In this document: piece by piece, positions 7,095-62,535 of the stretch
How positions within the stretch are numbered: position 1 is the stretch's first letter
Layout of the letters: each line of letters begins with the position of its first letter
From: an uncultured Thermoplasmatales archaeon
Lineage (GTDB): Archaea > Thermoplasmatota > SW-10-69-26
Length of the DNA stretch: 64,000 bases
Assembly (NCBI GenBank): GCA_964581775.1
Contig: CAZOQA010000004.1
Coordinates: 3,786-67,785, forward strand
Direction: 5' to 3'
Position numbers and translations under genes: made by a program
Notes under the pieces: generated by a model
The model's database searches: none
Told to the model about the DNA's origin: nothing
Seen by the model: the letters and a program-made list of their open reading frames with translations, nothing else

Positions 7095-7916
7095 ATGAAC
7101 GCTCCCCGCACGATCGCTGCGCTTCTTGCCGCCGTGATGGCGTTTGGTGCCTTCACGGGCGGCGCGGCTGCGCACACAAGCGACGAGCACGGTGAGATAA
7201 CCTTCTACGACGGCCCGGACGCCGAAGGGCAACAAGCCCCCACGGAGGACGGGGAAGCCCCTGACGACTTCGTCGACCTAGAATGCGAGTTCTGGATCGA
7301 AGGCACCGACATCAGCCACCCCGAGGGGTCGATCGACGTCTGGCGCATCACGGGCCCTGGCACTAGCTTCGAGACGACGCTCGCCACATGGAACTTCACG
7401 CCCGAGGAGAACGCGACGTACGAGTTCGATAAGGGCCCCCTGACGCTCAACGAGTCCTGGGACCACTACTTCATCATCGCGGATATGGAGGATGAGGACC
7501 ACCACACGACCGAGGGCCACCACGTTGACTACACGGCCTGCGAGGACGATGAGGAACAGGAGCCCGAGACCCCCGTGTGCCCGGCCAACGTGGAGACGAC
7601 TGCTCACGAGGATGAGACGGTCGACCTGAGCTGGGATGCCTCCGCGGGCGCTGACTCGTACAACGTGTACCGCGCCACCGCGGGGGAGAGCTTCGAGCAC
7701 GTGGCCGAGGTGGAGTCCACCTCGTTCACGGACACGGAGACGGAAGCGGACGTGACCTACCAGTACCGCGTGACGGCCGCCAACGAAGCGGGTGAATCCG
7801 CGGAGTGTCCCGTCGCGGAGGTCACGGCGATCCCCGTGTTCGGCACGCCCGCCATCGCGGCCCTAGCCGCCGTGGGCGGCGTCGGCGCCATGACCGCGCT
7901 GCGCCGACGCGGCTGA
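7095..7916 (+). CDS. secreted acidic/His-rich protein with fibronectin type III domain and C-terminal anchor
   Basis: ATG at 7095 gives the signal peptide MNAPRTIAALLAAVMAFGAFTGGAAAH. The track start at 6957 adds an implausible basic leader. An FN3-like segment is present (VDLSWDASAGADSYNVYRA...YQYRVTAANEAGES). The C-terminus is IPVFGTPAIAALAAVGGVGAMTALRRRG. Confidence 0.75.
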   Translation: MNAPRTIAALLAAVMAFGAFTGGAAAHTSDEHGEITFYDGPDAEGQQAPTEDGEAPDDFVDLECEFWIEGTDISHPEGSIDVWRITGPGTSFETTLATWNFTPEENATYEFDKGPLTLNESWDHYFIIADMEDEDHHTTEGHHVDYTACEDDEEQEPETPVCPANVETTAHEDETVDLSWDASAGADSYNVYRATAGESFEHVAEVESTSFTDTETEADVTYQYRVTAANEAGESAECPVAEVTAIPVFGTPAIAALAAVGGVGAMTALRRRG

Positions 7917-7965
7917 CCGTAACGCTTCAGATGGCTTCCGCCCCCCCCGGGTCTTCCTTTCTCGC

Positions 7966-15428: not shown

Positions 15429-15453
15429 AAACCCGACCCGGCATGCCGGCCCC

Positions 15454-17806: not shown

Positions 17807-17809
17807 CGC

Positions 17810-36617: not shown

Positions 36618-36642
36618 AGGGGCTCGATGGGCTGGCGTCCTG

Positions 36643-49300: not shown

Positions 49301-52300
49301 CCGGGCGAGGACGACGGCGGGGACGACGGCGTGGGCCTCGTCACGCAGACGCTTTTGACCTTCTGCGGGGACACGCAGGTCGTCGAGAACGTCGAGCCGG
49401 CCTGCGACCAAGCGGACATCGTCGCGGCGGAGTGCGACCTCACCGAGCACGTGGACTCCACGATCCTGCACCAGTCCGGGCAAACAGAGGAGGACGGTGT
49501 CGTGGTCGAATGGACCCAGCCGGTCGGATGGCAGACCGAGCGCGTGGACATCACGCGCATCGTGGAGGAGACCACGCGCGAGGACGGGCTCGACGAGGGC
49601 TTCTACGTGATGTTCAACCTCGTCACGACCTCGGACCTCGACACCTTCCTCACCAGCGCAAGCGCGGACGCCCCCGGCGAGGGCGACAAGGCCGGCGCGC
49701 AGACCGCAGACACCGACGCCGCGCTCACCAAGGCCGAGGCCACCTTCGGGTGGGAGCGCGGGACCGTGCCCGTGTGGACCGTGAACGAACCCCGGCTTGA
49801 GCGCGCAGCCGAGGACAGCGACGAACCCCGGGCGCGCTGGTGCCTGAGCCCCAACCCTGATACCGAAGACATCTCCGAGTGCGAGACCGAGAAGACGCTC
49901 CAACCCAGCGACATGCGAGGCTGGGAGACCTTCTGGCTCGAGGACAGCGCCCGCACCGCTTGGTCCTACGAGCAACGGGGTGGCGACCCGCAAAGCACCT
50001 CCCCCGGCGCGCTCGTGTGGGAGGGCGGATCGGGCGAGCTGATCCAAACGCACGACGGGCTTAGCGTCGCCATCGACCAAGACGAACGGGACCCGTACAG
50101 CGTGCTCAAAAGCCCCGTCGTGGACGTCTCCGGGTACGACCAACCCGTGGCCCAGATGAACGTGCAATGGGGCCAAAGCGAGGCCGGAACGGCCTATTAC
50201 GGGGACGATCAAGAGCTGGCAAGTCTCGAGAGCCGCTGCGATAGCGAAAGCGACGCCGCCCAAGACAGCCACGTGTGGGCCTGGACCGGGTGGAACGTGC
50301 GCGTTCGACCCGTGAACGCGGACGGGAGCCTGGGCGAGGCCCAGACCGTGGAACCCGTCGGCGGGTACCACGCGTGCGAGACGGACACGGACGCGCGCGT
50401 CTCCGTGCTCTTCAACGGGGAGGCCATCTACCGCTCCCCCAACACGTACGAGTCCACGATCGTCTGGGAGGGGTCCCCCGTTGGGGTCCCGGGTTCCGAT
50501 CTGGGCAGCACGTGCGGGACGGGCTTGGAGGAGGCCACGGACCCGACGCAGTTCTGCCGGGACGCCGAGCTGGCGTTCGGGCACGAGGAGCCCGTGTTCG
50601 CGTTCCCGATGCCCGGCTGGAATGAGGTCGCCTTCGACCTGTCCGAGTTCCGGGGCCAACAGGTGCAGATCGAGGTCCACGCATTTGGCCTGATGGCAGA
50701 GGAGCCAGGGTCTTTGCCGCGCGACCCGGTCCCGCGGGGCGAGCTCCGCGTCGACGCGTTCGAGGTCTCCGAGGGCAACCCGCCCTACGATGCGAGCCTC
50801 GATCACGAGGACCGGTCCCTGATCGCGCCCGCGACCGAGGAGCGCTTCGAGCTCGACATCACGAACCGAGGCTCCGACCCGATCGACCGCGTCGATCTGC
50901 GACGCACGGTCGTGGGCCCGGACGGGTGCCAGGCCGTGGACCCCGTCGTGGAGCCGTGGACGCTTCTGGACCCCCAGACGGGGGAACCCGGCCTCCCCCC
51001 CGGCGAGGAGGCCACGATCCGCAACCCGCAGCTGGCCTGGAACGTGCCCGACGACGAGGGCGAGATCTACGAGCGCCGCCTGACCGTGGAGACCGGCGGG
51101 TCGCTGGCACCCAGCCTTGCCCCCGAGGCCATCCTGCACCCCGGCGAGGACGGGTCCGTGACGGCCGTGTTCGTGGACGGGGACGACTGCGCGGACGACG
51201 TCGAGCTCACCGTGGACGAGCTGGCCGGCGACGCGAACGTGGACGAGGACGCGAACACGGTCACCGTGGACCACGAGGACGAGGAGGACATCGAGACCCG
51301 GAGCAGCATCAAGGTGCACGCCACGGACGCGCACGGCGTCGAGAGCCTGCCCGCGTACCTCACACCCGTGCCCCCCACCGGGCTCCAGGACCCCGTGCCC
51401 GGGTTCGAGGCCACGTGCGACCCGCTCCCGGACGACCCTAACCACGTGGCCGAGTGCACCTTCGACGCGAGCGAGCTCACCCAAGACCCGAGCGACGTGA
51501 TCGAAGAGTACCGCTGGGACTTCGACGATGCAGACGAAGGTGCCGGCGAGAACGTCACGCACCGGTACGAGGACGCAGGCACGTACAACGTGGAGCTCAC
51601 CGTCGCGTGGGACATCGACGAGGACGAAGAGGAAACGGCCTCCGTGGACGAATGGGTCACCGTGAATGAGGACGACCCGTACCAGCAGCTCGTCCGAACG
51701 GTCGTCGAAGGGACGAACATCCAGGGGCTTTTGGGCCTCTCCGACGACGAAGACGACGAGCTAGAACAGCTGCCCGACGAGGGCGAGACCGAGGTCGAGG
51801 TGCTCCAGTCCGCCACCCGCGAGGACGGGACCGGTTCCGCCGTGCGCATCGCCGTAGACAAACCGGAAGACTCGATGGCGACCCGCCTGGTTTTGCCATG
51901 CGAGACGGGCGCCCAGTGCGAGGGGAACATGATCGGCGTCACCGGGTTCGACGACGTGCTCCTGCAGGGTTTGGCCCCGGGCCACTACATCGGGTACGTC
52001 ATGTTCGGGGACCAGTTCGCCTTCTCGCCCGTCGAGTTCACGGTCGAACTCGAGCCCGACACGGGAACGGATGCGCGCCCCAGCGACAACACGATCACGC
52101 TGAAGAGCGAGATCCGAGAGGACCCCAGCGTGCGCGTGGAAAGCATCGACGTGCCCAAGCTTTTGCCGGTCGGAGAGGAGGTCCAGCTGGACATCCAGGT
52201 CACCAACGACGGGAACGTGCCCCTCGAGGACGTGACCACGGACGTCCGCATCTCCCCGTTCGACCTGAGCGTGGAAGCCGACCGCATCCAACGCTTGGAC

Positions 52301-55300
52301 CCCGGTCGCACGCTCACCGCGCAGGCCACGGTGGACCTGCCCCGGCCCGGGCCCGCCACGGTCAGCGTCGCGACCACGGCCGCGGCCGAGGACCGAGGCA
52401 CCGTCGCCGACGAGAAAGGCTCCGGCACCGTCGTCGTGGACCGACACGTGCTCTCCCCCGAACCCGGAGACCACGACCACTGGGACGTGGACGAGGTCAT
52501 CCAGTTCGGCGACGGGAACCGCCTGCCCAGCAACGTGAACACCACTCTCCCGCTGGCCGGCCAGATGGACACCGCAAGCTCCCCCTTCAGCATCTTCGAG
52601 ATCAACGTGAGCGGGACCCTCGAGCAAGCCTACGACGGGCTCAGCGTCGAATGGCGACCCGCCGACGCCGAGCTCAACGCCCAAAGCCGCGTGCCCTACA
52701 AGGATCTCATCCGTACGGAAGGCTACCGCGTGCCCGGCTCGAACCTCCAAGCCCTCTTCGACGAGGACGCGGACCGGGACCGGTTGGGCATCGACTGCGA
52801 CCCGTTCATCGACACCAGCGACATCGCGAACCAGGAGGTCCCCATCGCGGAGCTCTCCAACCCCGAAACGTACGCCTGCCACGAGCTCCCGCTAGGATCC
52901 AACATCACCGCAAGCCACAAAGGCGGCACGCCCGGCAACCTCACCAGCGCCATCACGGGCACCCCCACCCTGGACCTGCCCGGCATCGAGACCCAGCAGA
53001 TCCGCACCAGCGCCGCGGATATACCCAGCACGCAGCGCACCGTGGACACGATCTCCGCCAGCGACTGGGAAGAGAAGGACCAGATGGGCGGGTTCACGTT
53101 CGAGGAGGATCGGTCCTCCCTGGACAGCAGCAGCGCCTTCTACCTGCCCACCGGCACCATCGCGGAGAACGCCGAGCACTACTCGCACGAGCTCCGCGTG
53201 CCCCTTACGGTCGGCGAATGGTGCCAGTTGACCACGGAGATGGTCCCCGATCGAACACCCTTCCGCATCGTCACCGAGGAACGCCGGCTCTTCGCGAACC
53301 AGGAGGCCGGCACGAGCGGATGGGACGTGAACGTGCGCTTCGAGACCGGTGACGTCGGCCTGGCCACGTCCACCGTGATCGGGGACACGATCGTGGACCT
53401 CGAGGATCCGACCACGACGGGATGGGAGAGCCTGGAGTACGATCTTCCCCTGGGCCCCCTCTTCGCGGTCGCCACGGAGGACCCCGTGCCCATCCCCGGC
53501 TCGCTCAGCGGCACAGACGAGGACAACTGCCAGGTCCTCGAGGAGGAAGCCGCCGACCAGAAGGACAGGCTCTCCGAGGCCGAGATCATCCTGGAGTTGA
53601 CCAGCGAGCAGGGCCCCAACGAGGACGCGCTCGACGTGGGCTGGTTCGTCGGGTCCCTCGAAGCGCCCGAGCTGGGCATCGACATCGGAGCCTCCGAATC
53701 CAACCACGAGGCTCGGACCTGCCAGGAGCAAGCGCCTCCCGAGACGTGGCCCCCCGGCAACGGTCAAGGGTACCGGACCGTGTACGGGTGCAGCGAGTTC
53801 GCGACCAGCGGCGAACCCAAACGAGGATCCCTCGAACCAGGGGACGAATGGGTCAGCGATCCTCTGGGCTCGACCGAGCGCATCCAAAGCATCGCGTTCA
53901 GCGGCTCCACAGTCGTCAACGACGCGTCCGAGAACGTCGTCCTCCTCGAGGCTCTCCGTAGCGAGCGCCCCCTTGAGATCGACGAACCCACCGAGAACGG
54001 CCTGTACAGCGATCTGGACGACGACGAGACGCCTGAGGTGCTCACCACGCACCCCAGCGGGTACGAGTTCGGCGAGTTCGGCGACACCGATGGCGAAGAC
54101 TGGTTCCGGTACGTGGACGCGGTCGCGCTCGTGGACCTGCGCGCGGGCCTCGATGGCGAGGTGCTCTTCGACATGCACGCCGAGAACGGGGACGACATCG
54201 TGGCGCAGGTCGTCGCGGCACCCCTCGAACCCGGGGAAGCCTTCGGCGAGGAGGCGCCCACGCGCGTCGAGTGGACACCCCTGCAGGTGTGCGAGGCGGA
54301 CGCGGTGAGCCTCACGTACCCGCCCACGCCCCTTGGGGCAGGCCCCGGCGAGATCGTCGGCCCCCTGGACGCGTACAACACGACCCTCGAGGACGTGGAG
54401 TACACCAGCGAGGACGACAAGCAGCCCCTGTGCGCGGACGTCTCCCCCGTCGGCGGCGAAGTGGCCCTGATCGGGATCCGGTTGTGGATGCCCACCCAGG
54501 ACGCGAGCGTCGAGATCGGCGACGCCGAGGTCAACATGGACGTGCCCGACCCGCAGCAGCTTCGCCCCCAGCTTCGCGCCATGACGGACGACACCGTGCA
54601 CGAGGGCACGCTCACCATCCACGACGTCTCCATCCTCTCCATGCCTCCCGCGTTCAGCCACAACGCGGACGTTGCCTTCGACGAGCCCGTCAAATGGAAG
54701 GGCGACGAGGTGCTCGAGTCCAACAGCACCCCCTCGTTCACCATCCACGTCGACCAACCCGCCCGCCAGAGCACCTGGGACATCCAGGCCAACGTCTCCT
54801 TCGACGTGACCGTGTCAAGCGACGCGAACACGGACGTCGAAAGCGGCACGTACGCGGGGTTCGTGGACCTTCCCCAGTCCAGCTACGAAGGCTCCCAAAA
54901 GCTCGACGTCACGTGGGAGATGATGCGCGAGAGCGTCGAATCGTACCAGCACACGAACGGGACCTGGGACGACGAGGTGGACTACCTGGACTGGCTGGCG
55001 GACGAACCCGTTCTCCCGTCCGGGGACATCGCCGTGGACGCGATCGACGTCCGCGTCGAGACCGAGCTCGACGCCCTCGTGGACCCCGTCTCCGACTGCC
55101 CATCCAGCCTCGAGGACTTGGCCAAGAGCACGGATGTCACCTGCCGCCAACTGGCCACGATTGTGGACGAGGGACGCCAAGCCACGACGTCCATCGACAC
55201 CGAGCGCGCCCTCCCGGACGATCCCGGCGTGCGCCACGTGGCCGTCACGCCCGACCGGGACAGCCCCGTCGCGGTCCGAACGGCTCACCTGGAGCTGACC

Positions 55301-58300
55301 AACCCCTCCTCGCTGCCCGTGTCCCTCTCCGGCACGCTCACCCTGTCCTCCCCCGGCGGCGCGCTCCTTGAGGAGATCCCCTTCCCGGAACGCACCCTGG
55401 AGGCCTGGAGCGACGACACCGCCACCATGGAGCTGCCCCCCGTCGACGGCGAGCACGATCGCATCGTCGTGGAAGCCACCATCGAGGACACCAACGCCCG
55501 CGACGACTACCGGAGGACCACGCTGCACGAGGCCTCCAACATGGTCCCGTTCTTCTTCAACGACGAAGCAAGCGGCGTCACGCAGACGCTCGAGGCCGCC
55601 AAACCGGATCTGCCCGGCGCGTCCGGGGACGGTGTAGGCTGGATGATCGAGTCCGGCGGCGGCGACCGGGACATCACGCCGCTGGCGACGGACAGCCTCG
55701 ATGCACAAGGGCTCTACGACATGCTGCAAGAGGACGAGGACCCCCTGCTCGTCTTCCAGCACCAGCGCGACCTCGTCGGGGACGCCAGCGAGGACTCCGA
55801 CGGCGACTACAGCTACCTGGGAGCCGCCCTATGCTCCGGGTTCGAAAACTCAGAGCCGGACGAGGAAGACCCCTGCGTGCTGCTTGAAAGCGCCTGGGCC
55901 CCCGACCCCGCGGACGCGATGGCTTCGTCGACGGAAACCGACCCAAACACCGGGGAATCCTGGGACGAGTGCACCGAGGAGGGCCAAGACGAACCCGACC
56001 CGAACCTCGTCGCGTACGGGATCAACGGGCCCGGCCACGGCGTGCTCGGAGACAGCACGGGCGTGATCCGCCCCAGCGTCCTCGGCGCGTGGGAGACCGC
56101 CGCGTTCGAGATCCCGGAAAGCGCCGTGGACACCGTCGCACCCAGCGGGGACTGGCCCGTGCACTTCCGCATCTTCCTGGGCGAGTGCAGCACCGAGAAG
56201 CCCAGCACGGTCGTCGTGGACGACGTGGGCCTGGCAAGCGCCCGCCCCGTCTTGGACATCGGAGCCCAGGACGTGCCCATCTGGCCGGGAAGCGAGAAAC
56301 GGTACCCGTTCACGCTGGAGAACCGCGGCGCCGGAAGCGACATCTTCCGCGTGGTCCCCTCCCAAGAGGTCCCCGACGGCTGGCACGTCAGCATCGACGT
56401 TGACGGAGACACCGTGTACGACACGCGCACCGGTCAAGCCCGCCCCGTCGAGGTGGCCCAAGACGAGACCCTGGAAGGCGTCGCGCGCGTGCAAGCCCCC
56501 TCGGACGCGCGAGGCACGATTCAGGACCTGGCCCTGACCGCGTACGCCACGAACGCGCCCGGGTTGATGTCCTCCGGCGCCCTCAAGGCAAGCATCGAGC
56601 GCGTAAGCCCCTCCCAGCTCGAAGAAGACCCGCTCGCCGTCGCCGACCCCGGAGCCATCACGCTTCGCACCGAGCGCGTCGAGCTGCCCAACCTCGTCGT
56701 GCAAGACGACTCGATCACGGTCGAGAACGCCGAGATCGGACGCGAGACGAACATCCAGTTCCAGGTCGCCAACGAAGGCCTCCAACGCGCCGAGGACGTG
56801 CCCATCGCGGTCGCGATGCGAGGACCTAGCGGGTTCGAGACGCTGGCCAGCCCCAGCGGGGAAGACCCCGTACGGGAGACCGTGCAACCCGGCGCCACGA
56901 CCACGCTCACGTACACCTGGACGCCCCGAGAGGCCGGGGAGCACACGCTGCGCATCGTCGCCGACCCGGACCCCGGCGACGTGAACCTCCTGCTGGACGA
57001 CGAGGTCGAGCGCTTCTTCGGCGTCGCCCAAGAAAGCGCCGAGTGCAGCCCGCGCGAGGCCTGCCCCAACCTCCTCGACCACGCCTTCCAAGTCGAACCC
57101 CTCCAACAACCCGATCTGCGCCTGGACGTGCAAGGCGTGCCCGAGCGCATCGGCATCGGGGACGAGACCGAGCTCACCGTGATCGTCGAGAACGTGGGCG
57201 GACGCGCCGCCACGGACGCCACGCTCCGCTTGAGCGAGAACGGGCTGTTGCCCATCCTCGACAGCATGACCGTGGACCTTCCCCGCATCGAGCCCGGCGG
57301 CCAGGAGACCATCACGACCACGTGGGCCCCCGTCTCGCCGGGCGAGGGCCTCGTCATCGGCAGCGTGGAAGGCCCCGACGTGTACACCGGGCAACGGCCC
57401 GACGGGTCCAGCGCCAGCGAAGACAGCGACGTGGCCCTCCCCGTCGTCATCGACCGCCCCGACGTGGACGCCAGCCTCTCCGAGCCCATCCGCACCGAGC
57501 CCGGCACTTCGCACGCCGTGCTCCTCAACGTCACCAACGACGGCACCGCGCCCGTCGAGATCCTTCCCGAGACGGTGCACCGGGACGGCGTGTACCTGAG
57601 CCCCGTCGTGAACGCGCCCGTCGAGGTCCCGCCCGGCCAGTGGGAGACCGTGCCCGTGCTCGGGTTCGCCGAGATCGGCACGCCCCCCACGACGAGGGAG
57701 CTGCCCGTCCCGCTGAGCCAAGGCGACGCCACCGCGACCGTGACCGTGCTCGGCGCCGCCGACGCGCGCGTCGTCCTCGACGAGACCCCGCTCGAGCCCG
57801 GCACCGCGGACCTCCAAGCCCTCGTCACGAACCACGGCAACGTGCCCCTGGACGGGGAGATAAGGGTCCGAGGCGACGGGATCCGCGGGACCGCGAGCGT
57901 GGACATCGCGCCCGGGGACGCCGCGAACGTGACCGTGCCCGTCACGGTGCAACCCCGCGTGGAACCCGGCACCGTGAACGTGGCCACGCACGTGACGACG
58001 GACGACGAGGACCGCGTCACGCAGATCGACCGCTTGACGGTCGACGCGGCGCCCGCCGTCGACTTCGACCTGCGCGCCGACGAGGTGCCCTTGACCGGGT
58101 CCGCCCAGGGGCAGCTTGTGATCCGCAACGTGGGCAACATGCCCCTGGACGGTCGCGCCGTCCTCGACGGGCCGGTCTCCTTGAGCGGGTCCCCCATGCT
58201 GGACCTGGACCCGGCCGCGTCCACCGTGCTCCCGGTGACCTGGGTCTCCGGCACGGACCGCAACGGGACCGCCAGCGTGGAAACGCTCGACGGGGACACC

Positions 58301-58747
58301 GTCGGGACCACGCAGCTCTCCCCGAGCGATGTCAGCCCCCGCTTGGAGGTCAGCAACGTGGGCACCAGCCCCAGCGTGAACCTCGCCGAAGGCATGATCG
58401 TGCAAGTCGTGGGCACCGTCGAGAACACCGGCGTCGTGCCCCTGGAGAACCACACGCTGGGCGTCACCGTGGACGGCGAGCTCTACCAGACGTTCGAGAT
58501 CGACGACGTGCGTCCGGGCGAGGTCACGACCGCCAGCCACGAGCTCGAGCTCCCGAAAAGCGGCGAGATCACGCTGGGCCTGGTGGACCTGGCCGCCTTC
58601 CAACGCGGCGAGACCGCGGGCGCAGCCACCACCATCACCGCGGACGAGGCCTCGCTGGGCCTTGGCACCATGCTCGAGATCCCGAACCTTCCCGTCCTCG
58701 GCGTCGTCTCCATCGTCGGCGTCGCCGCGGGGGTGAAGCGCCGGTGA
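46331..58747 (+). CDS. giant anchored surface protein (about 4138 aa): signal peptide, three jelly-roll (MAM/choice-of-anchor-J-like) modules, PKD domain, many CARDB/NEW3-like Ig modules
   Basis: The start is TTG 46331, with AGGAGG at 46316-46321 and a TTGA overlap with the upstream stop. The alternative is GTG 46322 as in the track. The signal is NARLLVAALVVVGLPMIAIASAQD. A PKD segment is YRWDFDDADEGAGENVTHRYEDAGTYNVELTV. CARDB-like segments include PNLVVQDDSITVENAEIGRETNIQFQVANEG and PDLRLDVQGVPERIGIGDETELTVIVENVGG. The C-terminus is IPNLPVLGVVSIVGVAAGVKRR. Confidence 0.9.
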   Translation: MNARLLVAALVVVGLPMIAIASAQDTPDPGLPDVGEVPDPGEDAAFDEVFVVLDENACPIEDGFEADLLEGTTAWSSEHHPRASQDCVAQWGDGTYERGSKAALEATEMPTRHLAASNAPSQLVNDAAQTLIDNGVDPRIAAPVLAGFADGCEAAYAVGDTTAESAMNPAGDFCREVIQGSTMFLEVPEVPSGVGALYLDVSHAYQFSQPDDNQIAPDGAWVEARVPGEDYQRLDPVALYGPSEDGQGTLCGTSGPVTVILDNYIRNYDGGAIEESISSLEELYRPELPPEMADATPSILDPIPESEHEWRENCGGIVDQTYDQTLQTSQDTGEDETSSSSNQPPLQRISPYPGTIRGEGSGFVGSTVDETGEPRFIKHWFDLSPYAGETVEVRFLATGGAGLGTQEGGWWIDHANLRYSGPADDLSVRVDTPQDGDVLPSGRSQITPGGVLPVEFVVENLGRTPAGPATVEVSMAGAMQNVTVPELQPLDAYRAFAILPVPTAGDGEISAALAQRVPLEENAQNVPYADSFPANNEDTIEVSFDAVQDVELDIVEVQQDGSEFNVTVDVENQGNQPAMVPLEATLTPVDLSTRSPRTVDAQPQGIVASVMVPHSDEVNSYGVSDPTRSANVDLEVPNEGVWEIKLSSIAHDDADATTIVPFGEATPTAISNSLGRVLTGPTEEIPRGGFELVGETDDLDEQAAFLEDLRHPIDGPETRFVPIGQAAMGSAGEMLPEEWSPVRGENAAAWGNASIGGEDRDSCEVDAELADNTNIGGQVLNQQLGTVAGSLETVLCTANDLNETVGGACDQLRGQNETVGDACASTLPTDSIPEDLFGDLENEAGIRSPTDLRVPASLQAWNVRQNHVAIYGVGTDASDAESLDASDEESLRIQEDDDRVYIDFRHAGKLHWENERGAKAQLAIVPGGQVNLVEEMRSVENQTRQLTHDLGLPPEGQALVNTLLMDVFFQNVIQNTPDTRLPQDVCNGLNPGEDDGGDDGVGLVTQTLLTFCGDTQVVENVEPACDQADIVAAECDLTEHVDSTILHQSGQTEEDGVVVEWTQPVGWQTERVDITRIVEETTREDGLDEGFYVMFNLVTTSDLDTFLTSASADAPGEGDKAGAQTADTDAALTKAEATFGWERGTVPVWTVNEPRLERAAEDSDEPRARWCLSPNPDTEDISECETEKTLQPSDMRGWETFWLEDSARTAWSYEQRGGDPQSTSPGALVWEGGSGELIQTHDGLSVAIDQDERDPYSVLKSPVVDVSGYDQPVAQMNVQWGQSEAGTAYYGDDQELASLESRCDSESDAAQDSHVWAWTGWNVRVRPVNADGSLGEAQTVEPVGGYHACETDTDARVSVLFNGEAIYRSPNTYESTIVWEGSPVGVPGSDLGSTCGTGLEEATDPTQFCRDAELAFGHEEPVFAFPMPGWNEVAFDLSEFRGQQVQIEVHAFGLMAEEPGSLPRDPVPRGELRVDAFEVSEGNPPYDASLDHEDRSLIAPATEERFELDITNRGSDPIDRVDLRRTVVGPDGCQAVDPVVEPWTLLDPQTGEPGLPPGEEATIRNPQLAWNVPDDEGEIYERRLTVETGGSLAPSLAPEAILHPGEDGSVTAVFVDGDDCADDVELTVDELAGDANVDEDANTVTVDHEDEEDIETRSSIKVHATDAHGVESLPAYLTPVPPTGLQDPVPGFEATCDPLPDDPNHVAECTFDASELTQDPSDVIEEYRWDFDDADEGAGENVTHRYEDAGTYNVELTVAWDIDEDEEETASVDEWVTVNEDDPYQQLVRTVVEGTNIQGLLGLSDDEDDELEQLPDEGETEVEVLQSATREDGTGSAVRIAVDKPEDSMATRLVLPCETGAQCEGNMIGVTGFDDVLLQGLAPGHYIGYVMFGDQFAFSPVEFTVELEPDTGTDARPSDNTITLKSEIREDPSVRVESIDVPKLLPVGEEVQLDIQVTNDGNVPLEDVTTDVRISPFDLSVEADRIQRLDPGRTLTAQATVDLPRPGPATVSVATTAAAEDRGTVADEKGSGTVVVDRHVLSPEPGDHDHWDVDEVIQFGDGNRLPSNVNTTLPLAGQMDTASSPFSIFEINVSGTLEQAYDGLSVEWRPADAELNAQSRVPYKDLIRTEGYRVPGSNLQALFDEDADRDRLGIDCDPFIDTSDIANQEVPIAELSNPETYACHELPLGSNITASHKGGTPGNLTSAITGTPTLDLPGIETQQIRTSAADIPSTQRTVDTISASDWEEKDQMGGFTFEEDRSSLDSSSAFYLPTGTIAENAEHYSHELRVPLTVGEWCQLTTEMVPDRTPFRIVTEERRLFANQEAGTSGWDVNVRFETGDVGLATSTVIGDTIVDLEDPTTTGWESLEYDLPLGPLFAVATEDPVPIPGSLSGTDEDNCQVLEEEAADQKDRLSEAEIILELTSEQGPNEDALDVGWFVGSLEAPELGIDIGASESNHEARTCQEQAPPETWPPGNGQGYRTVYGCSEFATSGEPKRGSLEPGDEWVSDPLGSTERIQSIAFSGSTVVNDASENVVLLEALRSERPLEIDEPTENGLYSDLDDDETPEVLTTHPSGYEFGEFGDTDGEDWFRYVDAVALVDLRAGLDGEVLFDMHAENGDDIVAQVVAAPLEPGEAFGEEAPTRVEWTPLQVCEADAVSLTYPPTPLGAGPGEIVGPLDAYNTTLEDVEYTSEDDKQPLCADVSPVGGEVALIGIRLWMPTQDASVEIGDAEVNMDVPDPQQLRPQLRAMTDDTVHEGTLTIHDVSILSMPPAFSHNADVAFDEPVKWKGDEVLESNSTPSFTIHVDQPARQSTWDIQANVSFDVTVSSDANTDVESGTYAGFVDLPQSSYEGSQKLDVTWEMMRESVESYQHTNGTWDDEVDYLDWLADEPVLPSGDIAVDAIDVRVETELDALVDPVSDCPSSLEDLAKSTDVTCRQLATIVDEGRQATTSIDTERALPDDPGVRHVAVTPDRDSPVAVRTAHLELTNPSSLPVSLSGTLTLSSPGGALLEEIPFPERTLEAWSDDTATMELPPVDGEHDRIVVEATIEDTNARDDYRRTTLHEASNMVPFFFNDEASGVTQTLEAAKPDLPGASGDGVGWMIESGGGDRDITPLATDSLDAQGLYDMLQEDEDPLLVFQHQRDLVGDASEDSDGDYSYLGAALCSGFENSEPDEEDPCVLLESAWAPDPADAMASSTETDPNTGESWDECTEEGQDEPDPNLVAYGINGPGHGVLGDSTGVIRPSVLGAWETAAFEIPESAVDTVAPSGDWPVHFRIFLGECSTEKPSTVVVDDVGLASARPVLDIGAQDVPIWPGSEKRYPFTLENRGAGSDIFRVVPSQEVPDGWHVSIDVDGDTVYDTRTGQARPVEVAQDETLEGVARVQAPSDARGTIQDLALTAYATNAPGLMSSGALKASIERVSPSQLEEDPLAVADPGAITLRTERVELPNLVVQDDSITVENAEIGRETNIQFQVANEGLQRAEDVPIAVAMRGPSGFETLASPSGEDPVRETVQPGATTTLTYTWTPREAGEHTLRIVADPDPGDVNLLLDDEVERFFGVAQESAECSPREACPNLLDHAFQVEPLQQPDLRLDVQGVPERIGIGDETELTVIVENVGGRAATDATLRLSENGLLPILDSMTVDLPRIEPGGQETITTTWAPVSPGEGLVIGSVEGPDVYTGQRPDGSSASEDSDVALPVVIDRPDVDASLSEPIRTEPGTSHAVLLNVTNDGTAPVEILPETVHRDGVYLSPVVNAPVEVPPGQWETVPVLGFAEIGTPPTTRELPVPLSQGDATATVTVLGAADARVVLDETPLEPGTADLQALVTNHGNVPLDGEIRVRGDGIRGTASVDIAPGDAANVTVPVTVQPRVEPGTVNVATHVTTDDEDRVTQIDRLTVDAAPAVDFDLRADEVPLTGSAQGQLVIRNVGNMPLDGRAVLDGPVSLSGSPMLDLDPAASTVLPVTWVSGTDRNGTASVETLDGDTVGTTQLSPSDVSPRLEVSNVGTSPSVNLAEGMIVQVVGTVENTGVVPLENHTLGVTVDGELYQTFEIDDVRPGEVTTASHELELPKSGEITLGLVDLAAFQRGETAGAATTITADEASLGLGTMLEIPNLPVLGVVSIVGVAAGVKRR

Positions 58748-61700
58748 GACAAGGCGCCATCGTGCTCTTGGGCCTGCTCATCACGCTTCCCCTCGCCATG
58801 CCGGGCGCGATCGCGCAAGAAGCCCCCGGCACGGGCCCCCCCGACGACTGGGAACCCTGGCTGGACGAGGACCTGATCACGCGCGTGCCCCTCGAGGTCA
58901 CCACGGGCCAGCACTACCCGCCCGACTGGGACGGGCCCCGCCTGATCGCGTACGAGCTGGACGTCAACCAGGTCCTCGCCGACGCGGGCTGGCCCACCGA
59001 CCGCGGCCAACCCGTCGACTTCACGCTCGACCCGGATAGCATCCGCGTGGTCCCCCAAGGCGTCGCGGACCCCCAGCCCGTGCCCATGGTCACCTGGCAA
59101 GGGTCCCTGCTGACCGAGGGAGCCTTGGGCCCCACCGTCACGATCGCGTTCCTGGCCGAGCCCGGCCTGGACGCGTACCACGTGTACTTCGACCGGACCG
59201 AGGACGGGGACGAGCACGAGCCCGTGGCCCGCGACGCCGTCGAAGAGCAACGCATCCTTCAACTGCTCGCCGGGCACGGCAGCGGGCACGAGCTCGTCGC
59301 GCCCCTGGCCACGGAGGAGGAAGCCACCGTCGCGATCACCAGCGAGCACGCCACGCCCCTCCAGGTCGAGCACGTGACGCCCCAGGGGTCCAGCATCGTC
59401 TCCTGCAGCTCCACCCACGTAGGCCCCGGCACCTGGTCCGAGTGCGAGATCGGGACCGGCGGGGACGTGCACGCCGTGCGCGTCACCGCGGAAGCCCCCG
59501 TCACCGCGTACGCCTGGACGGGGAGCCCCGACTCGGGCACCGAGCACGCGATGGTGCCCCTCTCGGGCAGCCAGGGCACCCCGAACGGCGCGATCCTTCA
59601 CGCGCCCGCCCTCCGCAGTGGCACCACGCCCGTGAACCTGATCAGCGTGCAAGGCACCTGCGAGGCGACCGTGGGCTCCACGACCCTGCAAGTGGGCCCC
59701 GATACGCCCACGAGCGTGTCCATCCAGGATCACGAGACCGTGGACGCCGAGTGCCCCCTGCTCGGATGGATCCCCGGCCGCGGCCCCGCCACGCCGCCGG
59801 TCAGCGTGAACCAGACCCTCACCAAGAGCGCCGTCACGAGCACCGGGCACGCGCCCGGGTCCTGCGGCATCCAGCAGACCGTCGCCGCCGTGGGCGACCG
59901 CCACGCGAACGTGGTCCGCGTCGACACGAGCGTGCAAGAGGAGGACGTGCGCTCGCTGTCCCGCCCCACCGACGCGGTCCCCCACCGCTTGGACCACGAG
60001 CAGATGCGCGCGGCGGACTGGCCCGCGCTCGAGGACGCCCAAGGCACCGGGTACACCGTGCTCAACCAAGGCGACACCGCCTGGCCCAGCCTGTGGGACC
60101 CCGAGGAGGGCGCCTTCCAGCTGGCCCCCACGCGCACCGGCAGCATCGGCTGGATCGGCGCCGCCAACGCGGAGGAGTGCGACGTTGAGCTTCGGTTGGC
60201 CGCCGTTCCCTTCTCGGGGAACCCCCGCGTCGAGTTCGCCGCGCACGGCGAGCGCCTCCCCCCCGACGTGATGGGCCCCTTCACCGTGAGCCAAGCCTTC
60301 ACCCACCAGGAGGAACCCAACGACCCGACCGAGATCCCCGACACGGGGAGCCTCGTCGAGACGGGCCTTCGGGGGGACGTGGCCCTCACGGCCGGGTTCG
60401 CCCTCGTGGGCGACCAGGCCATCCCCACCGCGTTCGCCTCGCACCTTCGCCCCATGACCGTGGACGAGGGCCAGGCCGACGTGATCGGGCCCCTGTTCGA
60501 CCTGCAGCTTGAACCCACGGCCCGCATCTCGCCCCCCGGCGAGGTGCAAACCTTCACCCTCACCGGGCAAGGCCAACACCTGGCCCCCACCGGCGAGGTC
60601 ACACCGCTCGAGGTCAACCTGAACGCGGAGAGCATCACGCAAACCGAGGGCGTCCCGGACGTCGAGCACGACCTGGGGACCATCCAAGCCCAGCTCCCCC
60701 TCGACGAGCCTGGGGAGGTGACCACGCTCACCGTGACCGCGCCCAACGACGTGCCCCACGACACGACGCCCACGTACGAGCTGCTCATCACGGGCGAACC
60801 CGTGGACGGCGGGGACGCCGTGCCCGCGCGCGCCACGCTGCAAGTCGTGCCCGACCGCGAGCTCAGCCTCACCTTCTCCGACGGGAGCCAGCTTCAAGAC
60901 CTGACCACCGAGGACGGCGAAGCCTCGGCCTCGCTCGTGCTCTCGAACGAAGGCACCGCCGTCGAGGACGTGGACCTGTCCACCGTCGTGCCCGGGGACC
61001 TTGCCTGGGAGGTGGACGTGCGCGACCCGTCCACGGGCGAACCGTTCCCCAACGACGTCGTCACGGAGCTCCCGCCCGGCGAGGAGCAACAGCTGGACCT
61101 GGAGGTGACCGTCCCCGGGGAGGCCTCTCGCGTCGTGGACGTGACCGTCGTCGCGCAAAGCCTCGAGGATGCAAGCGTCACGAGCGAGGCCACCGCGCGC
61201 GTCGCGCACGGCATCGACGTGAACGTGGACGGGCTCGTGGACCCGGACCTGATCACGCTTCGACCCGGCTCCAGCGAGCAAGCCAACCTGACGCTCGAGA
61301 ACCGAGGAAGCGAGGTCTCCGTCCAGGTGAGCCCTGAGGCAGAGGGCGCCCTCGTCGTCGAGGCCGCGGACGATCGCGTGAACCTTGGACCCGAGGGCAC
61401 GCCGCGCGCCAACGCGACGGTGCCGCTGAACGTGACCGCTGCCAGCGATGCCCCCATCGGGGCCGTCGTCGTGGCCACGATCACGCTGAACGTGCACGTG
61501 GGCGACTTGGACCCCATCGAGCAACTGTTGAGCCTGCGCCTTCGCGTGGTCCCCGACCACGGCCTGACCGCCGTGGAACCCATCGAGGTGCTGCCCGGGC
61601 TCAAGGAGCCCACGAACGTGACCGTGCGCGCCACCGGCGACGCGGACGAGCGCGTGGACCTGTCTCTTCTATCCGCGCCCCGCGGCTGGACCATCGAGCA

Positions 61701-62535
61701 CCCCGCGAACGTGACCGTGCCCCACAACACGACCGCGCCGGTCGAGCTGAACATCACCACGCCCGAGGCCACCGAGCCTGGCACGTACGATGTGGGGTTC
61801 AGGGGCCTGCCCGGGGACGGCACCGAGCCCTTCTCGTTCCGCACGCAGGTCATCGTGCCCGAGACGCCCGCGTTCGAGCTCAGGCTCCCCTCACCGCCTC
61901 CCTTGGGCGTGGGGGCCGAAGAGACCTTCCCGATGACGATCCGCAACGTCGGCAACGTGCCCGGGAACGCGACCATCGAGACCAACGCGAGCATCGTGGA
62001 CGCTGTCCCGCGACCCGCCACGCCCTCCCAACTGGCCCCCGGGCACGAGGAGCGCCTGCAGCTCGTGCTCCGCGCTCAAAGCCCCGGGAACGACACGGTC
62101 CAGTTCGACCTCACGCCCGGGCAAGACGCGACCCTGCCCGTGGACGTGGGCCTCGTGGACCTGTCCCTGGAGCTGGTCAGCGTCACGCCCAACCCCCCCA
62201 GCGAAGGCGAGCCCGTGCAAGCCGTGGTCAGCCTCTCCAACGAGGGCACGGTGCAAGCGCGCAACGTGAACGTGAGCGTCATGAGCGGGACGCAAGCCCT
62301 GCACACGGAGAACGTGGCCCGCCTGGACCCCGGCTCCCAGGTGTCGATGACGCTCGCCATGAACGAGCTCCCCACCACGCAAGGCTTAAGCGTGCACGCC
62401 GACCCTGACGGCGTCTACGACCAGGAGGATCCCACGAGCCGCGAGGCCGCCCTGTCCCCGGACGAAGCGCCCAGCCTCCCCCTGGCGCTTGTCGTCCTGA
62501 CGGGCACCCTGGCGGCGATCCTACGGAGGACGTGA
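58744..62535 (+). CDS. large anchored surface protein (1263 aa) with CARDB/NEW3-like Ig modules
   Basis: The GTG at 58744 overlaps the upstream stop (GTGA). The signal is RQGAIVLLGLLITLPLAMPGAIAQE. Modules include LTLENRGSEVSVQVSP, LSAPRGWTIEHPANVTVPHNTTAPVELNITTPEATEPGTYDV and VDLSLELVSVTPNPPSEGEPVQAVVSLSNEG. The C-terminus is APSLPLALVVLTGTLAAILRRT. The part of the track ORF upstream of 58744 is out-of-frame overlap. Confidence 0.85.
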   Translation: MRQGAIVLLGLLITLPLAMPGAIAQEAPGTGPPDDWEPWLDEDLITRVPLEVTTGQHYPPDWDGPRLIAYELDVNQVLADAGWPTDRGQPVDFTLDPDSIRVVPQGVADPQPVPMVTWQGSLLTEGALGPTVTIAFLAEPGLDAYHVYFDRTEDGDEHEPVARDAVEEQRILQLLAGHGSGHELVAPLATEEEATVAITSEHATPLQVEHVTPQGSSIVSCSSTHVGPGTWSECEIGTGGDVHAVRVTAEAPVTAYAWTGSPDSGTEHAMVPLSGSQGTPNGAILHAPALRSGTTPVNLISVQGTCEATVGSTTLQVGPDTPTSVSIQDHETVDAECPLLGWIPGRGPATPPVSVNQTLTKSAVTSTGHAPGSCGIQQTVAAVGDRHANVVRVDTSVQEEDVRSLSRPTDAVPHRLDHEQMRAADWPALEDAQGTGYTVLNQGDTAWPSLWDPEEGAFQLAPTRTGSIGWIGAANAEECDVELRLAAVPFSGNPRVEFAAHGERLPPDVMGPFTVSQAFTHQEEPNDPTEIPDTGSLVETGLRGDVALTAGFALVGDQAIPTAFASHLRPMTVDEGQADVIGPLFDLQLEPTARISPPGEVQTFTLTGQGQHLAPTGEVTPLEVNLNAESITQTEGVPDVEHDLGTIQAQLPLDEPGEVTTLTVTAPNDVPHDTTPTYELLITGEPVDGGDAVPARATLQVVPDRELSLTFSDGSQLQDLTTEDGEASASLVLSNEGTAVEDVDLSTVVPGDLAWEVDVRDPSTGEPFPNDVVTELPPGEEQQLDLEVTVPGEASRVVDVTVVAQSLEDASVTSEATARVAHGIDVNVDGLVDPDLITLRPGSSEQANLTLENRGSEVSVQVSPEAEGALVVEAADDRVNLGPEGTPRANATVPLNVTAASDAPIGAVVVATITLNVHVGDLDPIEQLLSLRLRVVPDHGLTAVEPIEVLPGLKEPTNVTVRATGDADERVDLSLLSAPRGWTIEHPANVTVPHNTTAPVELNITTPEATEPGTYDVGFRGLPGDGTEPFSFRTQVIVPETPAFELRLPSPPPLGVGAEETFPMTIRNVGNVPGNATIETNASIVDAVPRPATPSQLAPGHEERLQLVLRAQSPGNDTVQFDLTPGQDATLPVDVGLVDLSLELVSVTPNPPSEGEPVQAVVSLSNEGTVQARNVNVSVMSGTQALHTENVARLDPGSQVSMTLAMNELPTTQGLSVHADPDGVYDQEDPTSREAALSPDEAPSLPLALVVLTGTLAAILRRT

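What the first reader, a model, noticed from the sequence alone, without database searches (positions are those of the whole stretch)
7095..62535. Seven secreted proteins share a C-terminal hydrophobic-Pro..Pro, TM helix and Arg-Arg signature, a candidate sortase-type sorting signal
The seven C-termini are as follows. IPVFGTPAIAALAAVGGVGAMTALRRRG ends at 7916. VPLPVGLAVAALIGASVARSRRSS is from the M14 peptidase, whose minus-strand gene ends at 27583. VPTWGWLAPLAAGLLIAFGYTRHRRR ends at 36516. APFPWLPALLLAPLLQRRTP ends at 38313. VPAPSLAVLLTVLTLIPLARRWTA ends at 46334. IPNLPVLGVVSIVGVAAGVKRR ends at 58747. APSLPLALVVLTGTLAAILRRT ends at 62535. All have [V/A/I]-P, a second Pro or Gly/Trp within a few residues, a helix of about 15-18 hydrophobic residues, then a basic cluster at the extreme C-terminus. 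This is the tripartite architecture of PGF-CTERM, VPXXXP-CTERM and PEF-CTERM archaeosortase substrates, but the motif itself does not match PGF exactly. No archaeosortase gene is visible in this window.
Basis: partly seen in the sequence, partly recalled or inferred. Interest (0 to 1): 0.7.

Follow-up and report, generated by a model that had tools for sequence, protein, structure and literature searches.

The report
Diverged PGF-type C-terminal sorting tails
Seven exported surface proteins of an uncultured salt-adapted Thermoplasmata archaeon end in the same conserved Pro-motif, hydrophobic stretch and Arg-Arg tail, which looks like a lineage-specific, degenerate form of the known archaeal PGF-CTERM sorting signal; the enzyme that would process it could not be looked for.

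Summary
All seven C-termini read exactly as reported. Each protein has a Sec-type signal peptide and extracellular domains (fn3, PKD, CARDB, M14 peptidase).

The tails are under selection. Orthologues of all seven families keep a [V/I/A/T]-Pro at a fixed place in front of the hydrophobic stretch, although the linkers before it diverge. In 113 of 115 M14-peptidase orthologues from Thermoplasmatota the tail carries [VTSAI]P, and 114 of 115 have RR in the last eight residues.

Most of those orthologue tails read VPG(F/L/P)(G/E). Two of the ten tails examined individually pass NCBIfam's curated PGF-CTERM cut-off. None of the seven window tails contains Pro-Gly. None matches any curated C-terminal sorting model, apart from one sub-threshold MYXO-CTERM hit for protein C.

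The best reading is a relaxed variant of the PGF-CTERM signal, with a phi-P-x-x-(P/G/W) motif, in a high-GC, acidic-proteome Thermoplasmata lineage. It probably directs cleavage and lipid anchoring by an archaeosortase-like enzyme.

No archaeosortase is encoded in the window or among the polytopic membrane proteins screened from 53 related archaeal loci (24 of 31 candidates; none Pfam-labelled in five further loci). Whole genomes could not be searched. A plain uncleaved membrane anchor therefore remains a serious rival.

Verdict: a new variant of a known kind, of moderate interest.

The parts
7095..7916 (+). Protein A: 273 aa, signal peptide, fn3 domain. Its tail IPVFGTPAIAALAAVGGVGAMTALRRRG lies at 7830-7913.
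   Evidence: Orthologues P0256, P0197 and P0283 keep VEVTAIP(V/F)F(G/D)xP, a hydrophobic stretch and R..R.
27583..29793 (-). Protein B: M14 zinc carboxypeptidase, 736 aa, signal peptide. Its tail VPLPVGLAVAALIGASVARSRRSS lies at 27586-27657.
   Evidence: Of 115 orthologue tails, 113 have [VTSAI]P, 77 have [VTSAI]PG, 13 have PGF and 114 have RR. The Pro is an invariant column, P714, in alignment A2.
35182..36516 (+). Protein C: about 445 aa, signal peptide, no Pfam domain. Its tail VPTWGWLAPLAAGLLIAFGYTRHRRR lies at 36436-36513.
   Evidence: The L063 orthologue tail is APVGSWWLWVGAMGALAIGAFAVRRRRRR. In L001 the tail IPLWGW...RYRDSRR is conserved behind an in-frame TAG.
36643..38313 (+). Protein D: 556 aa, signal peptide, PKD domains. 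Its tail APFPWLPALLLAPLLQRRTP lies at 38251-38310.
   Evidence: All seven full-length orthologues among the eight found (36-81% identity) keep the tail. Six read [AV]PFP[WGL]...PLLRR; the most distant, P0128, reads IPLGILPAVLTLTFIAVLRRRDP. The distance from Pro to the first basic residue is a constant 14 residues (17 in P0128). The eighth hit, P0122, is truncated.
38310..46334 (+). Protein E: 2674 aa, signal peptide or signal anchor, fn3 domain. Its tail VPAPSLAVLLTVLTLIPLARRWTA lies at 46260-46331.
   Evidence: Orthologues in L062 and L063 end in VPGPG...RRRW.
46322..58747 (+). Protein F: 4141 aa, signal peptide, CARDB, PKD and NPCBM_assoc domains. Its tail IPNLPVLGVVSIVGVAAGVKRR lies at 58679-58744.
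   Evidence: Orthologue tails are SIPSVPWAGVVGVLGLAAGVSRR in L067 and AIPTIPWYALLGLVVLAAGVKRR in L068. The L070 orthologue has no hydrophobic tail.
58744..62535 (+). Protein G: 1263 aa, signal peptide, CARDB, NPCBM_assoc and Ig_VWA7 domains. Its tail APSLPLALVVLTGTLAAILRRT lies at 62467-62532.
   Evidence: Five orthologues (39-75% identity) keep (D/E)[AVT]Px[LPG][PSA] followed by a hydrophobic stretch; four of them keep RR, and P0132 ends in GGRS.
35182..64000 (+). Conserved, translationally coupled operon C-D-E-F-G followed by a TSP3-repeat protein (62537 onwards, which runs off the window). It encodes five consecutive tail-bearing surface proteins.
   Evidence: Stop and start codons overlap, and GGAGG sits upstream of E and F. 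The same gene order occurs in L062, L063-L066, L067, L068 and L070.

Best explanation
The seven tails are copies of one C-terminal protein-sorting signal. It is used by a high-GC, acidic-proteome (probably halophilic) Thermoplasmata lineage and is a relaxed derivative of the archaeal PGF-CTERM signal.

Proposed mechanism:
1. The proteins are exported by Sec through their N-terminal signal peptides. This is shown by sequence.
2. The C-terminal hydrophobic stretch and the Arg/Lys cluster arrest the C-terminus in the membrane, with the conserved phi-Pro-x-x-(Pro/Gly/Trp) motif at the outer face. This is inferred from the architecture and the fixed Pro-to-Arg spacing.
3. A membrane-embedded archaeosortase-type transpeptidase, ArtA-like, recognises the motif, removes the hydrophobic and basic tail, and joins the new C-terminus to an archaeal membrane lipid. 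This leaves the large ectodomains lipid-anchored on the cell surface. It is inferred by analogy with Haloferax volcanii ArtA and was not tested here.

In this clade the Gly and Phe of PGF are no longer required. Only the Pro and its hydrophobic predecessor are kept, so the enzyme's specificity must differ from that of Haloferax ArtA.
For: (1) All seven strings are present in exported proteins with unrelated ectodomains.

(2) The tail is conserved across orthologues in every family while the acidic linkers diverge.
- M14: [VTSAI]P in 113 of 115, RR in 114 of 115, and the Pro is an invariant column in A2.
- D: all seven full-length orthologues keep the tail, six of them as PFP(W/G/L).
- E, C and F.
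- G.
- A.

(3) The distance from Pro to the first basic residue peaks sharply at 18-19 residues, in 69 of 115 M14 orthologues. In the window tails it is 15-23.

(4) There is continuity with PGF-CTERM.
- 31 of 122 tails hit TIGR04126 at E<=1, with a best E-value of 5e-7.
- The VPGFG tail of P0026 scores 27.2 bits and the TPGLE tail of P0095 scores 28.0 bits, against a curated cut-off of 24.5.
- Within the nearest clade the M14 tail runs VPGFG (L019), VPGIG, VPGAG, VPAPG, VPFPG, IPFPAS and VPLP.

(5) The hydrophobic part of the D family is only about 11-14 residues with two or three prolines, and its length is conserved. That is too short for a stable transmembrane helix. It fits a transient signal that is removed.

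(6) Seven substrates lie in 64 kb, five of them in one operon. In the same window, lipobox proteins (LAGC; 411-1880 and 22091-23260) lack the tail. This fits two alternative lipid-anchoring routes.

(7) The ArtA mechanism is established in H. volcanii: a PGF motif, a hydrophobic domain and basic residues, with cleavage and lipid attachment (PMC7157517).
Against: - No archaeosortase or exosortase domain (PF09721) was found in any window ORF. None was found in the 24 polytopic membrane proteins screened (of 31 candidates) from 53 related archaeal loci. None appears among the Pfam-labelled neighbours in five further loci.
- Whole genomes could not be searched.
- None of the seven tails reaches any curated CTERM model.
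- None of the ten tails from the nearest clade passes the PGF-CTERM cut-off.
- From my own knowledge of the literature (Abdul Halim et al. 2016, J Bacteriol 198:808, not readable here), permuting PGF blocks processing in H. volcanii. A canonical ArtA would therefore not be expected to accept VPLP, APFPW or IPNLP.
- A conserved Pro before a membrane helix also occurs in a protein that is probably just anchored: the plastocyanin-like tail EP(I/V)LPSP.
- In one related MAG (CSSed11_322R1) the tails of the C, F and M14 orthologues are interrupted, lost or lack RR. The tail is therefore dispensable in at least some genomes.
Confidence: 0.55

Rival explanations
1. Plain type I membrane anchors. The hydrophobic stretch is a permanent stop-transfer helix and the Arg cluster follows the positive-inside rule. 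The conserved Pro is only a helix N-cap or linker boundary, and nothing is cleaved.
For: - A hydrophobic stretch followed by basic residues is generic.
- The curated models for MYXO-CTERM, LPXTG, GVDTG and others all give promiscuous weak hits to these tails. This shows how little information such a tail carries.
- The plastocyanin-like protein has a conserved EP(I/V)LPSP in front of a C-terminal helix with no basic cluster. It looks like a simple anchor.
- No sorting enzyme was found nearby.
Against: - The same phi-Pro feature recurs in seven unrelated families, against a 14% background.
- It is near-invariant over orthologues at 33-64% identity.
- The D-family hydrophobic part is about 11-14 residues with prolines, too short to be a stable helix.
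- The tails grade into ones that pass the PGF-CTERM cut-off.
Confidence: 0.27
2. The signal is cleaved by a membrane protease that is not an archaeosortase. Candidates are a rhomboid (as rhombosortase does for GlyGly-CTERM), a CPBP/Rce1-like protease (as myxosortase does for MYXO-CTERM), or an enzyme not yet described. The result would be shedding or a different kind of anchoring.
For: - Helix-breaking Pro and Gly at the outer end of the hydrophobic stretch suit intramembrane proteases.
- A rhomboid gene lies in L016. DUF3267 zincin-like membrane proteins lie in L039 and L046. An Rce1-like CPBP gene lies 3 kb from the M14 gene in L072.
- The VPGPG tails of the E orthologues score above the MYXO-CTERM cut-off, 22-22.5 bits against 20.
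Against: - Each of these neighbours occurs in only one or two distant loci, and the families are common housekeeping membrane proteases.
- The tails lack the invariant Cys of MYXO-CTERM. 0 of 7 window tails and 3 of 115 orthologue tails contain Cys.
- The tails lack the Gly/Ser-rich motif of GlyGly-CTERM.
- The closest specific models are PGF-CTERM and Heimdall-CTERM.
Confidence: 0.15
3. Chance resemblance among unrelated hydrophobic C-termini in GC-rich DNA, where Ala, Pro, Gly, Arg and Leu are over-represented.
For: The window is 65-71% G+C, which enriches for Ala, Pro, Gly and Arg codons.
Against: - Among 517 six-frame ORF C-termini, only real tail-bearing genes score with an independently built HMM.
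- The tails are conserved across orthologues in every family.
- The background frequency of the motif is 14%.
Confidence: 0.02

Closest known systems
PGF-CTERM / archaeosortase A (ArtA); TIGR04126 and TIGR04125
   Same: - It has the same tripartite layout at the extreme C-terminus of Sec- or Tat-exported surface proteins: a Pro-containing motif, a hydrophobic stretch and an Arg cluster.
- Many substrates occur per genome.
- Orthologues of the window's M14 peptidase in other Thermoplasmatota carry tails that pass the curated PGF-CTERM cut-off.
   Different: - The window tails have no Pro-Gly and no Pro-Gly-Phe (0 of 7).
- They do not hit TIGR04126 even at E<=10.
- The motif is phi-P-x-x-(P/G/W), sometimes with the aromatic residue and Gly in another order (PVFG, PFPW, PTWGW).
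- No ArtA gene was seen. The host is a Thermoplasmata lineage, and the paper searches found no publication linking archaeosortases to it.
Heimdall-CTERM (NF045529) and Loki-CTERM (NF033507)
   Same: These are archaeal C-terminal sorting domains. Their models give the next-best specific sub-threshold hits to VPGFG and TPGFE tails of Thermoplasmatota orthologues: best E-value 6e-7, and 16-20 bits against a cut-off of 24.
   Different: The window tails do not hit them at all, and none of the orthologue tails examined individually reached the cut-off.
VPXXXP-CTERM / ArtB and PEF-CTERM / ArtC
   Same: - Both are archaeosortase-dependent tripartite signals (PMC9723798).
- Several window tails start with V-P and have a second Pro.
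   Different: - The spacing between the two prolines varies from 1 to 6 residues and is not fixed at three.
- TIGR04143 is not among the 25 families listed for the 122 tails and does not hit the seven window tails.
- There is no P-E-F.
MYXO-CTERM / myxosortase and GlyGly-CTERM / rhombosortase
   Same: - Both have a short motif, a hydrophobic stretch and an RRR-type tail.
- The MYXO-CTERM and GC_trans_RRR models hit 78 and 49 of the 122 tails at E<=1. JGI names one orthologue (P0097) a 'MYXO-CTERM domain-containing protein'.
   Different: - The tails have no invariant Cys and no Gly/Ser-rich motif.
- The hits rest on the hydrophobic-plus-Arg part only, so they are false positives of short models.

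Membership tests
PGF-CTERM sorting domain (TIGR04126), substrates of ArtA | Tripartite C-terminal domain: a signature motif, a hydrophobic helix and a basic cluster at the very end of an exported protein. | tested here: met
   This holds for all seven proteins. All seven have signal peptides, and six have extracellular domains.
PGF-CTERM sorting domain (TIGR04126), substrates of ArtA | A Pro-Gly-Phe signature motif. | tested here: not met
   0 of 7 tails contain PG or PGF. Among M14 orthologue tails, 13 of 115 have PGF and 77 of 115 have [VTSAI]PG.
PGF-CTERM sorting domain (TIGR04126), substrates of ArtA | A score at or above the curated model cut-off of 24.5 bits. | tested here: not met
   TIGR04126 gives no hit to the seven tails at E<=10. 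Ten tails from the nearest clade are all below the cut-off. More distant orthologues pass: P0026 with 27.2 bits and P0095 with 28.0 bits.
PGF-CTERM sorting domain (TIGR04126), substrates of ArtA | An archaeosortase A gene in the same genome. | not testable with these tools
   - There is no PF09721 domain in the window or in the neighbours screened in related loci.
- The source contig is not retrievable.
- No ArtA seed sequence was available.
PGF-CTERM sorting domain (TIGR04126), substrates of ArtA | C-terminal cleavage and lipid attachment. | not testable with these tools
   This needs an experiment. The mechanism is established only for H. volcanii (PMC7157517).
VPXXXP-CTERM (TIGR04143), substrates of ArtB | A V-P-x-x-x-P motif with fixed spacing, and a model hit. 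| tested here: not met
   The Pro-Pro spacing is 1, 2, 4 or 6 residues. There is no model hit to the seven tails, and the model is not among the 25 families listed for the 122 tails.
PEF-CTERM (TIGR03024), substrates of ArtC | A Pro-Glu-Phe motif and a model hit. | tested here: not met
   No tail contains PEF. Only one orthologue tail gave a weak hit, 12.9 bits against a cut-off of 23.
MYXO-CTERM (TIGR03901), substrates of myxosortase | An invariant Cys in the signature motif. | tested here: not met
   No window tail contains Cys (0 of 7), and only 3 of 115 orthologue tails do. The only hit among the seven is C, at 13.7 bits, below the cut-off of 20.
GlyGly-CTERM (TIGR03501), substrates of rhombosortase | A Gly/Ser-rich motif before the helix and a rhombosortase gene. 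| tested here: not met
   The seven tails have no Gly-Gly motif and no model hit. One VPGAG orthologue tail scores 16.7 bits. A rhomboid gene was seen in only one distant locus, L016.

The most novel reading that the evidence does not exclude
Salt-adapted Thermoplasmata use a sorting system of their own. It would be a 'phi-P-x-x-P' C-terminal signal that has dispensed with the Gly and Phe that Haloferax ArtA needs. It would be read either by a re-specialised archaeosortase paralogue or by a non-homologous membrane protease, and it would anchor giant adhesin-like proteins of 2,700-4,100 aa encoded in one conserved operon. If these genomes have no exosortase-family gene at all, the processing enzyme would be new.
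Probability: 0.2. Interest if true: 0.65.

Novelty: new variant of a known kind. Interest (0 to 1): 0.42.

Why it matters
C-terminal sorting signals decide which proteins are displayed on the surface of an archaeon. The archaeosortase system has been studied experimentally almost only in Haloferax.

This case shows, through orthologues, how a PGF-type signal can relax to little more than a Pro in an independently salt-adapted lineage. It marks a set of surface proteins, including a conserved operon of giant adhesin-like proteins, that current curated models leave unlabelled or mislabel as MYXO-CTERM.

It gives a concrete test set for archaeosortase specificity. It also provides a seed alignment for a new model that would improve annotation of Thermoplasmatota MAGs.

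Tried and rejected
- Retrieving the source contig to look beyond the window. Exact-protein look-ups failed for four proteins, and the cluster look-up gave no accession or name.
- Finding an archaeosortase.
  - No seed sequence could be obtained. The Haft 2012 and Abdul Halim 2016 papers are not held, and the papers that mention HVO_0915 seemed unlikely to hold its sequence and were not opened.
  - A Pfam scan of 24 polytopic proteins from 53 related archaeal loci found no PF09721.
  - Walking downstream of the operon in relatives found TSP3/DUF4129, DUF4350, DUF58 and a 1177-aa membrane protein, but no sortase.
  - A metagenome scan to walk further found nothing.
- Literature searches found no paper linking archaeosortase with Thermoplasmatota (0 papers hold both terms) and none among those listed for MGII, Poseidoniales or related groups.
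- I considered the ORF ending at 15978 (SPFE...RWWRGRK) as an eighth member. I rejected it because it is the last helix of a polytopic YdjM-like protein.
- I considered the plastocyanin-like tail as a member. I rejected it because it has no basic cluster and carries a different conserved motif.
- I rejected the MYXO-CTERM, LPXTG and GVDTG hits as artefacts of the hydrophobic-plus-Arg part.
Full report
**What the window is**

The 64-kb window is 65-71% G+C and is archaeal. It encodes:
- a thermosome at 2531-4228;
- an Hjc resolvase at 15979-16536;
- OapC;
- a Rieske/cytochrome b complex with a plastocyanin-like protein.

Its proteins are strongly acidic, with pI 4.0-5.0 and Asp+Glu of 15-21%, cytoplasmic proteins included.

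The M14 peptidase gene is 100% identical to a database protein from an unnamed 96,142-bp NCBI contig. Its named homologues are nearly all called Thermoplasmatota, Thermoplasmata, Methanobacteriota or Euryarchaeota archaeon MAGs. The nearest species representatives are:
- 'Thermoplasmata archaeon isolate CSSed11_322R1', 64% identity, syntenic over the plastocyanin - Rieske - cytochrome b - glutaredoxin - 5-FTHF ligase - M14 - peroxiredoxin stretch;
- 'Thermoplasmatales archaeon SW_10_69_26', 55% identity.

A halophilic order, Haloplasmatales, has been described within Thermoplasmatota (bioRxiv 10.1101/2023.07.03.547478). The acidic proteome fits such a lineage, but I did not establish membership.

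All seven C-terminal strings are in the sequence as quoted. After correcting the start codons, the genes are:
- A 7095-7916
- B 27583-29793 (-)
- C 35182-36516
- D 36643-38313
- E 38310-46334
- F 46322-58747
- G 58744-62535

Each protein starts with a Sec-type signal peptide without twin arginines. Six carry extracellular domains: fn3, M14 peptidase, PKD, CARDB, NPCBM_assoc and Ig-like. Protein C has no Pfam hit.

Two other exported proteins in the window use a lipobox (LAGC) instead and have no tail.

The motif [VIAT]P lies in the first nine residues of only 14% (47 of 326) of internal uncharged hydrophobic runs in the window and related loci. It lies there in all seven tails. The motif was chosen after seeing the tails, so this number is indicative only.

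An HMM made only from tails of M14 orthologues ranks E, A, G and B first among 517 six-frame ORF C-termini. F and D rank 9th and 10th, and C is missed.

**The tails are conserved, not incidental**

- **M14 family.** 115 full-length orthologues at 33-64% identity end with a hypervariable linker and then the tail. [VTSAI]P occurs in 113, RR within the last eight residues in 114, [VTSAI]PG in 77 and PGF in 13. In a 27-sequence full-length alignment the Pro is one of the invariant columns (P714), while the preceding roughly 40 columns have no consensus. The distance from that Pro to the first basic residue is 18 or 19 residues in 69 of 115.
- **D family.** All seven full-length orthologues (36-81% identity) keep the tail. 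Six read [AV]PFP[WGL]L..LL.PLLRR, and the most distant (P0128) reads IPLGILPAVLTLTFIAVLRRRDP. The Pro-to-Arg distance is a constant 14 residues, or 17 in P0128. A hydrophobic part of 11-14 residues with two or three prolines is too short and too kinked to be a stable membrane helix. It fits a transient signal.
- **E family.** Orthologues end in VPGPG...RRRW.
- **C family.** One orthologue ends in APVGSWW...RRRRRR.
- **F family.** Orthologues end in IPSVPW.../IPTIPW...(S/K)RR.
- **G family.** Orthologues end in (D/E)[AVT]Px[LPG][PSA]...RR.
- **A family.** Orthologues end in VEVTAIP(V/F)F(G/D)xP...R..R.

All seven unrelated families therefore keep the same feature.

**Relation to known signals**

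The seven tails themselves hit no curated C-terminal sorting model in NCBIfam release 20 at E<=10. The one exception is a sub-threshold MYXO-CTERM hit for C.

Scanning all 122 tails gives many weak, promiscuous hits that rest on the hydrophobic-plus-Arg part: MYXO-CTERM in 78, GC_trans_RRR in 49, GVDTG in 48 and LPXTG in 30. The specific archaeal models also appear, PGF-CTERM in 31 (best E 5e-7) and Heimdall-CTERM in 20.

Looked at one by one, the VPGFG tail of P0026 (27.2 bits) and the TPGLE tail of P0095 (28.0 bits) pass the curated PGF-CTERM cut-off of 24.5.

In the clade nearest the window the M14 tail runs VPGFG, VPGIG, VPGAG, VPAPG, VPFPG, IPFPAS and VPLP. None of ten tails from that clade passes any specific cut-off.

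The window tails are therefore the degenerate end of a series that starts at PGF-like. The Pro and its hydrophobic predecessor stay. Gly and the aromatic residue become optional or change order (PVFG, PFPW, PTWGW).

VPXXXP-CTERM and PEF-CTERM, the ArtB and ArtC signals (PMC9723798), do not fit. The Pro-Pro spacing is variable and there are no model hits.

**Mechanism proposed**

In Haloferax volcanii, ArtA recognises a C-terminal PGF motif, hydrophobic domain and basic stretch. It cleaves the protein, and the processed C-terminus becomes lipid-anchored with the help of PssA and PssD (PMC7157517).

By analogy I propose three steps: export by Sec, arrest by the tail, and then cleavage near the phi-Pro motif with lipid attachment by an archaeosortase-like enzyme. 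Only the first step and the architecture are shown by sequence. The rest is inference.

The main weakness is that the enzyme was not found.
- No window ORF has an exosortase/archaeosortase domain.
- Neither do the 24 polytopic proteins screened from 53 related archaeal loci.
- Neither do the Pfam-labelled genes around orthologues in five further loci.

ArtA is not normally encoded next to its substrates, so this absence is weak evidence. Whole genomes could not be searched.

From my own knowledge of the literature (a paper that could not be read here), permuting PGF abolishes processing in Haloferax. Any archaeosortase here would therefore need a different specificity.

**Rivals**

- **A plain, uncleaved type I anchor (0.27).** This is the main rival. 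Hydrophobic-plus-Arg tails are generic, and the plastocyanin-like protein shows a conserved Pro motif (EP(I/V)LPSP) before what looks like a simple anchor. Against it stand the recurrence of one feature across seven families, the fixed spacing, the very short D-family hydrophobic part and the continuity with PGF-CTERM.
- **A different membrane protease, such as a rhomboid, a CPBP/Rce1-like enzyme or an unknown one (0.15).** This is possible. Such genes were seen near M14 orthologues only sporadically, in L016, L072, L039 and L046.
- **Chance (0.02).** The conservation across orthologues excludes it.

**Context**

C, D, E, F, G and a following TSP3-repeat protein form a tight operon. Stop and start codons overlap, and Shine-Dalgarno-like GGAGG sequences are present. 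The operon is conserved in at least four other assemblies. Downstream of it in relatives lie DUF4350, DUF58 and a large membrane protein.

In the MAG CSSed11_322R1 three of the tails are impaired:
- an in-frame TAG sits just before the conserved C tail;
- the F orthologue ends without a hydrophobic stretch in any frame;
- the M14 tail ends in REQEA instead of RR.

Whether this is assembly error, decay or a switch to secreted forms is open.

**Verdict**

This is a new, relaxed variant of the PGF-CTERM type of archaeal sorting signal in a lineage where, as far as the held literature shows, it has not been described. The processing enzyme and the processing itself are untested.

- Interest: 0.42.
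- Novelty: new variant of a known kind.

Noticed in passing
L001 323-325 (minus strand) and the about 100 nt downstream of it: The orthologue of protein C in MAG CSSed11_322R1 has an in-frame TAG directly before a conserved in-frame tail, AVLAAIPLWGWAIALALLIVVAIAGVRYRDSRR. This could be a nonsense mutation, an assembly error, or read-through that gives secreted and anchored forms.
   Followed up: partly
L070 about 9940-10004; P0002 C-terminus: In the same MAG (GCA_003561665.1) the F orthologue ends in NLPWLSTMAPDGALGEVRLG, with no hydrophobic tail in any frame. The M14 tail ends in REQEA instead of RR. Together with the TAG in the C orthologue, three tails are impaired in one genome.
   Followed up: partly
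window 35182-64000; L062, L063, L067, L068, L070: There is a conserved, translationally coupled operon of giant surface proteins: C, D, E (2674 aa), F (4141 aa), G, then a TSP3/DUF4129 protein of about 2000 aa. In relatives it is followed by DUF4350, DUF58 and a 1177-aa membrane protein. This gene set resembles MoxR/DUF58-type clusters. That comparison is from memory and was not tested.
   Followed up: partly
window 29700-29793 (-); alignment A2 columns A22, P24, P26: The mature N-terminus of the M14 peptidase and its orthologues is a near-invariant ALPTPGF(N/F)GEE directly after the signal peptide. This is a PGF-like string at the N-terminus.
   Followed up: no
E-orthologue tails in L062 and L063; P0097: VPGPG...RRRW tails score 22-22.5 bits on MYXO-CTERM, above its cut-off of 20, although they lack the invariant Cys. 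JGI names one M14 orthologue a 'MYXO-CTERM domain-containing protein'. Short CTERM models mislabel these archaeal tails.
   Followed up: yes
window 34235-35107 (-); L001 1705-2487; L019 4045-4824: A plastocyanin-like copper protein sits next to the Rieske/cytochrome b genes. It has a conserved EP(I/V)LPSP motif followed by a C-terminal helix, with no basic cluster. This is a different, probably uncleaved, anchor class.
   Followed up: partly
window 1958-2470 (+) and 24276-24821 (+): Two paralogous small proteins of 170-181 aa have two hydrophobic helices (motif GE(I/Y)RGWWGL) and a C-terminal coiled-coil-like region. Neither has a Pfam match.
   Followed up: no
window 18717-20168 (-): One ORF fuses ThiS, ThiF and rhodanese domains. 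This joins a ubiquitin-like domain, an E1-like domain and a sulfurtransferase domain in a single polypeptide.
   Followed up: no
window 411-1880 (+) and 22091-23260 (+): Two exported proteins have a lipobox (LAGC) and no Pfam domains. They are candidate archaeal N-terminal lipoproteins encoded alongside the C-terminally tailed set.
   Followed up: no
L072 5466-6326; L016 808-1476; L039 15339-16325; L046 14611-15588: Membrane proteases lie within a few kb of M14 orthologues in single distant genomes: Rce1-like CPBP in L072, rhomboid in L016, and DUF3267 zincin-like proteins in L039 and L046. They are probably coincidental, but they are the only candidate processing enzymes seen.
   Followed up: partly
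window 12937-about 14700 (-) and 14885-15978 (+): The long minus-strand ORF 12937-15846 is real only up to about 14700. It encodes a secreted GSDH/NHL plus cupredoxin protein that ends in a His-rich HSHSHAHAHP. The region from 14885 to 15978 is coding on the plus strand (third-position GC about 0.9) and includes a YdjM-like membrane protein.
   Followed up: partly
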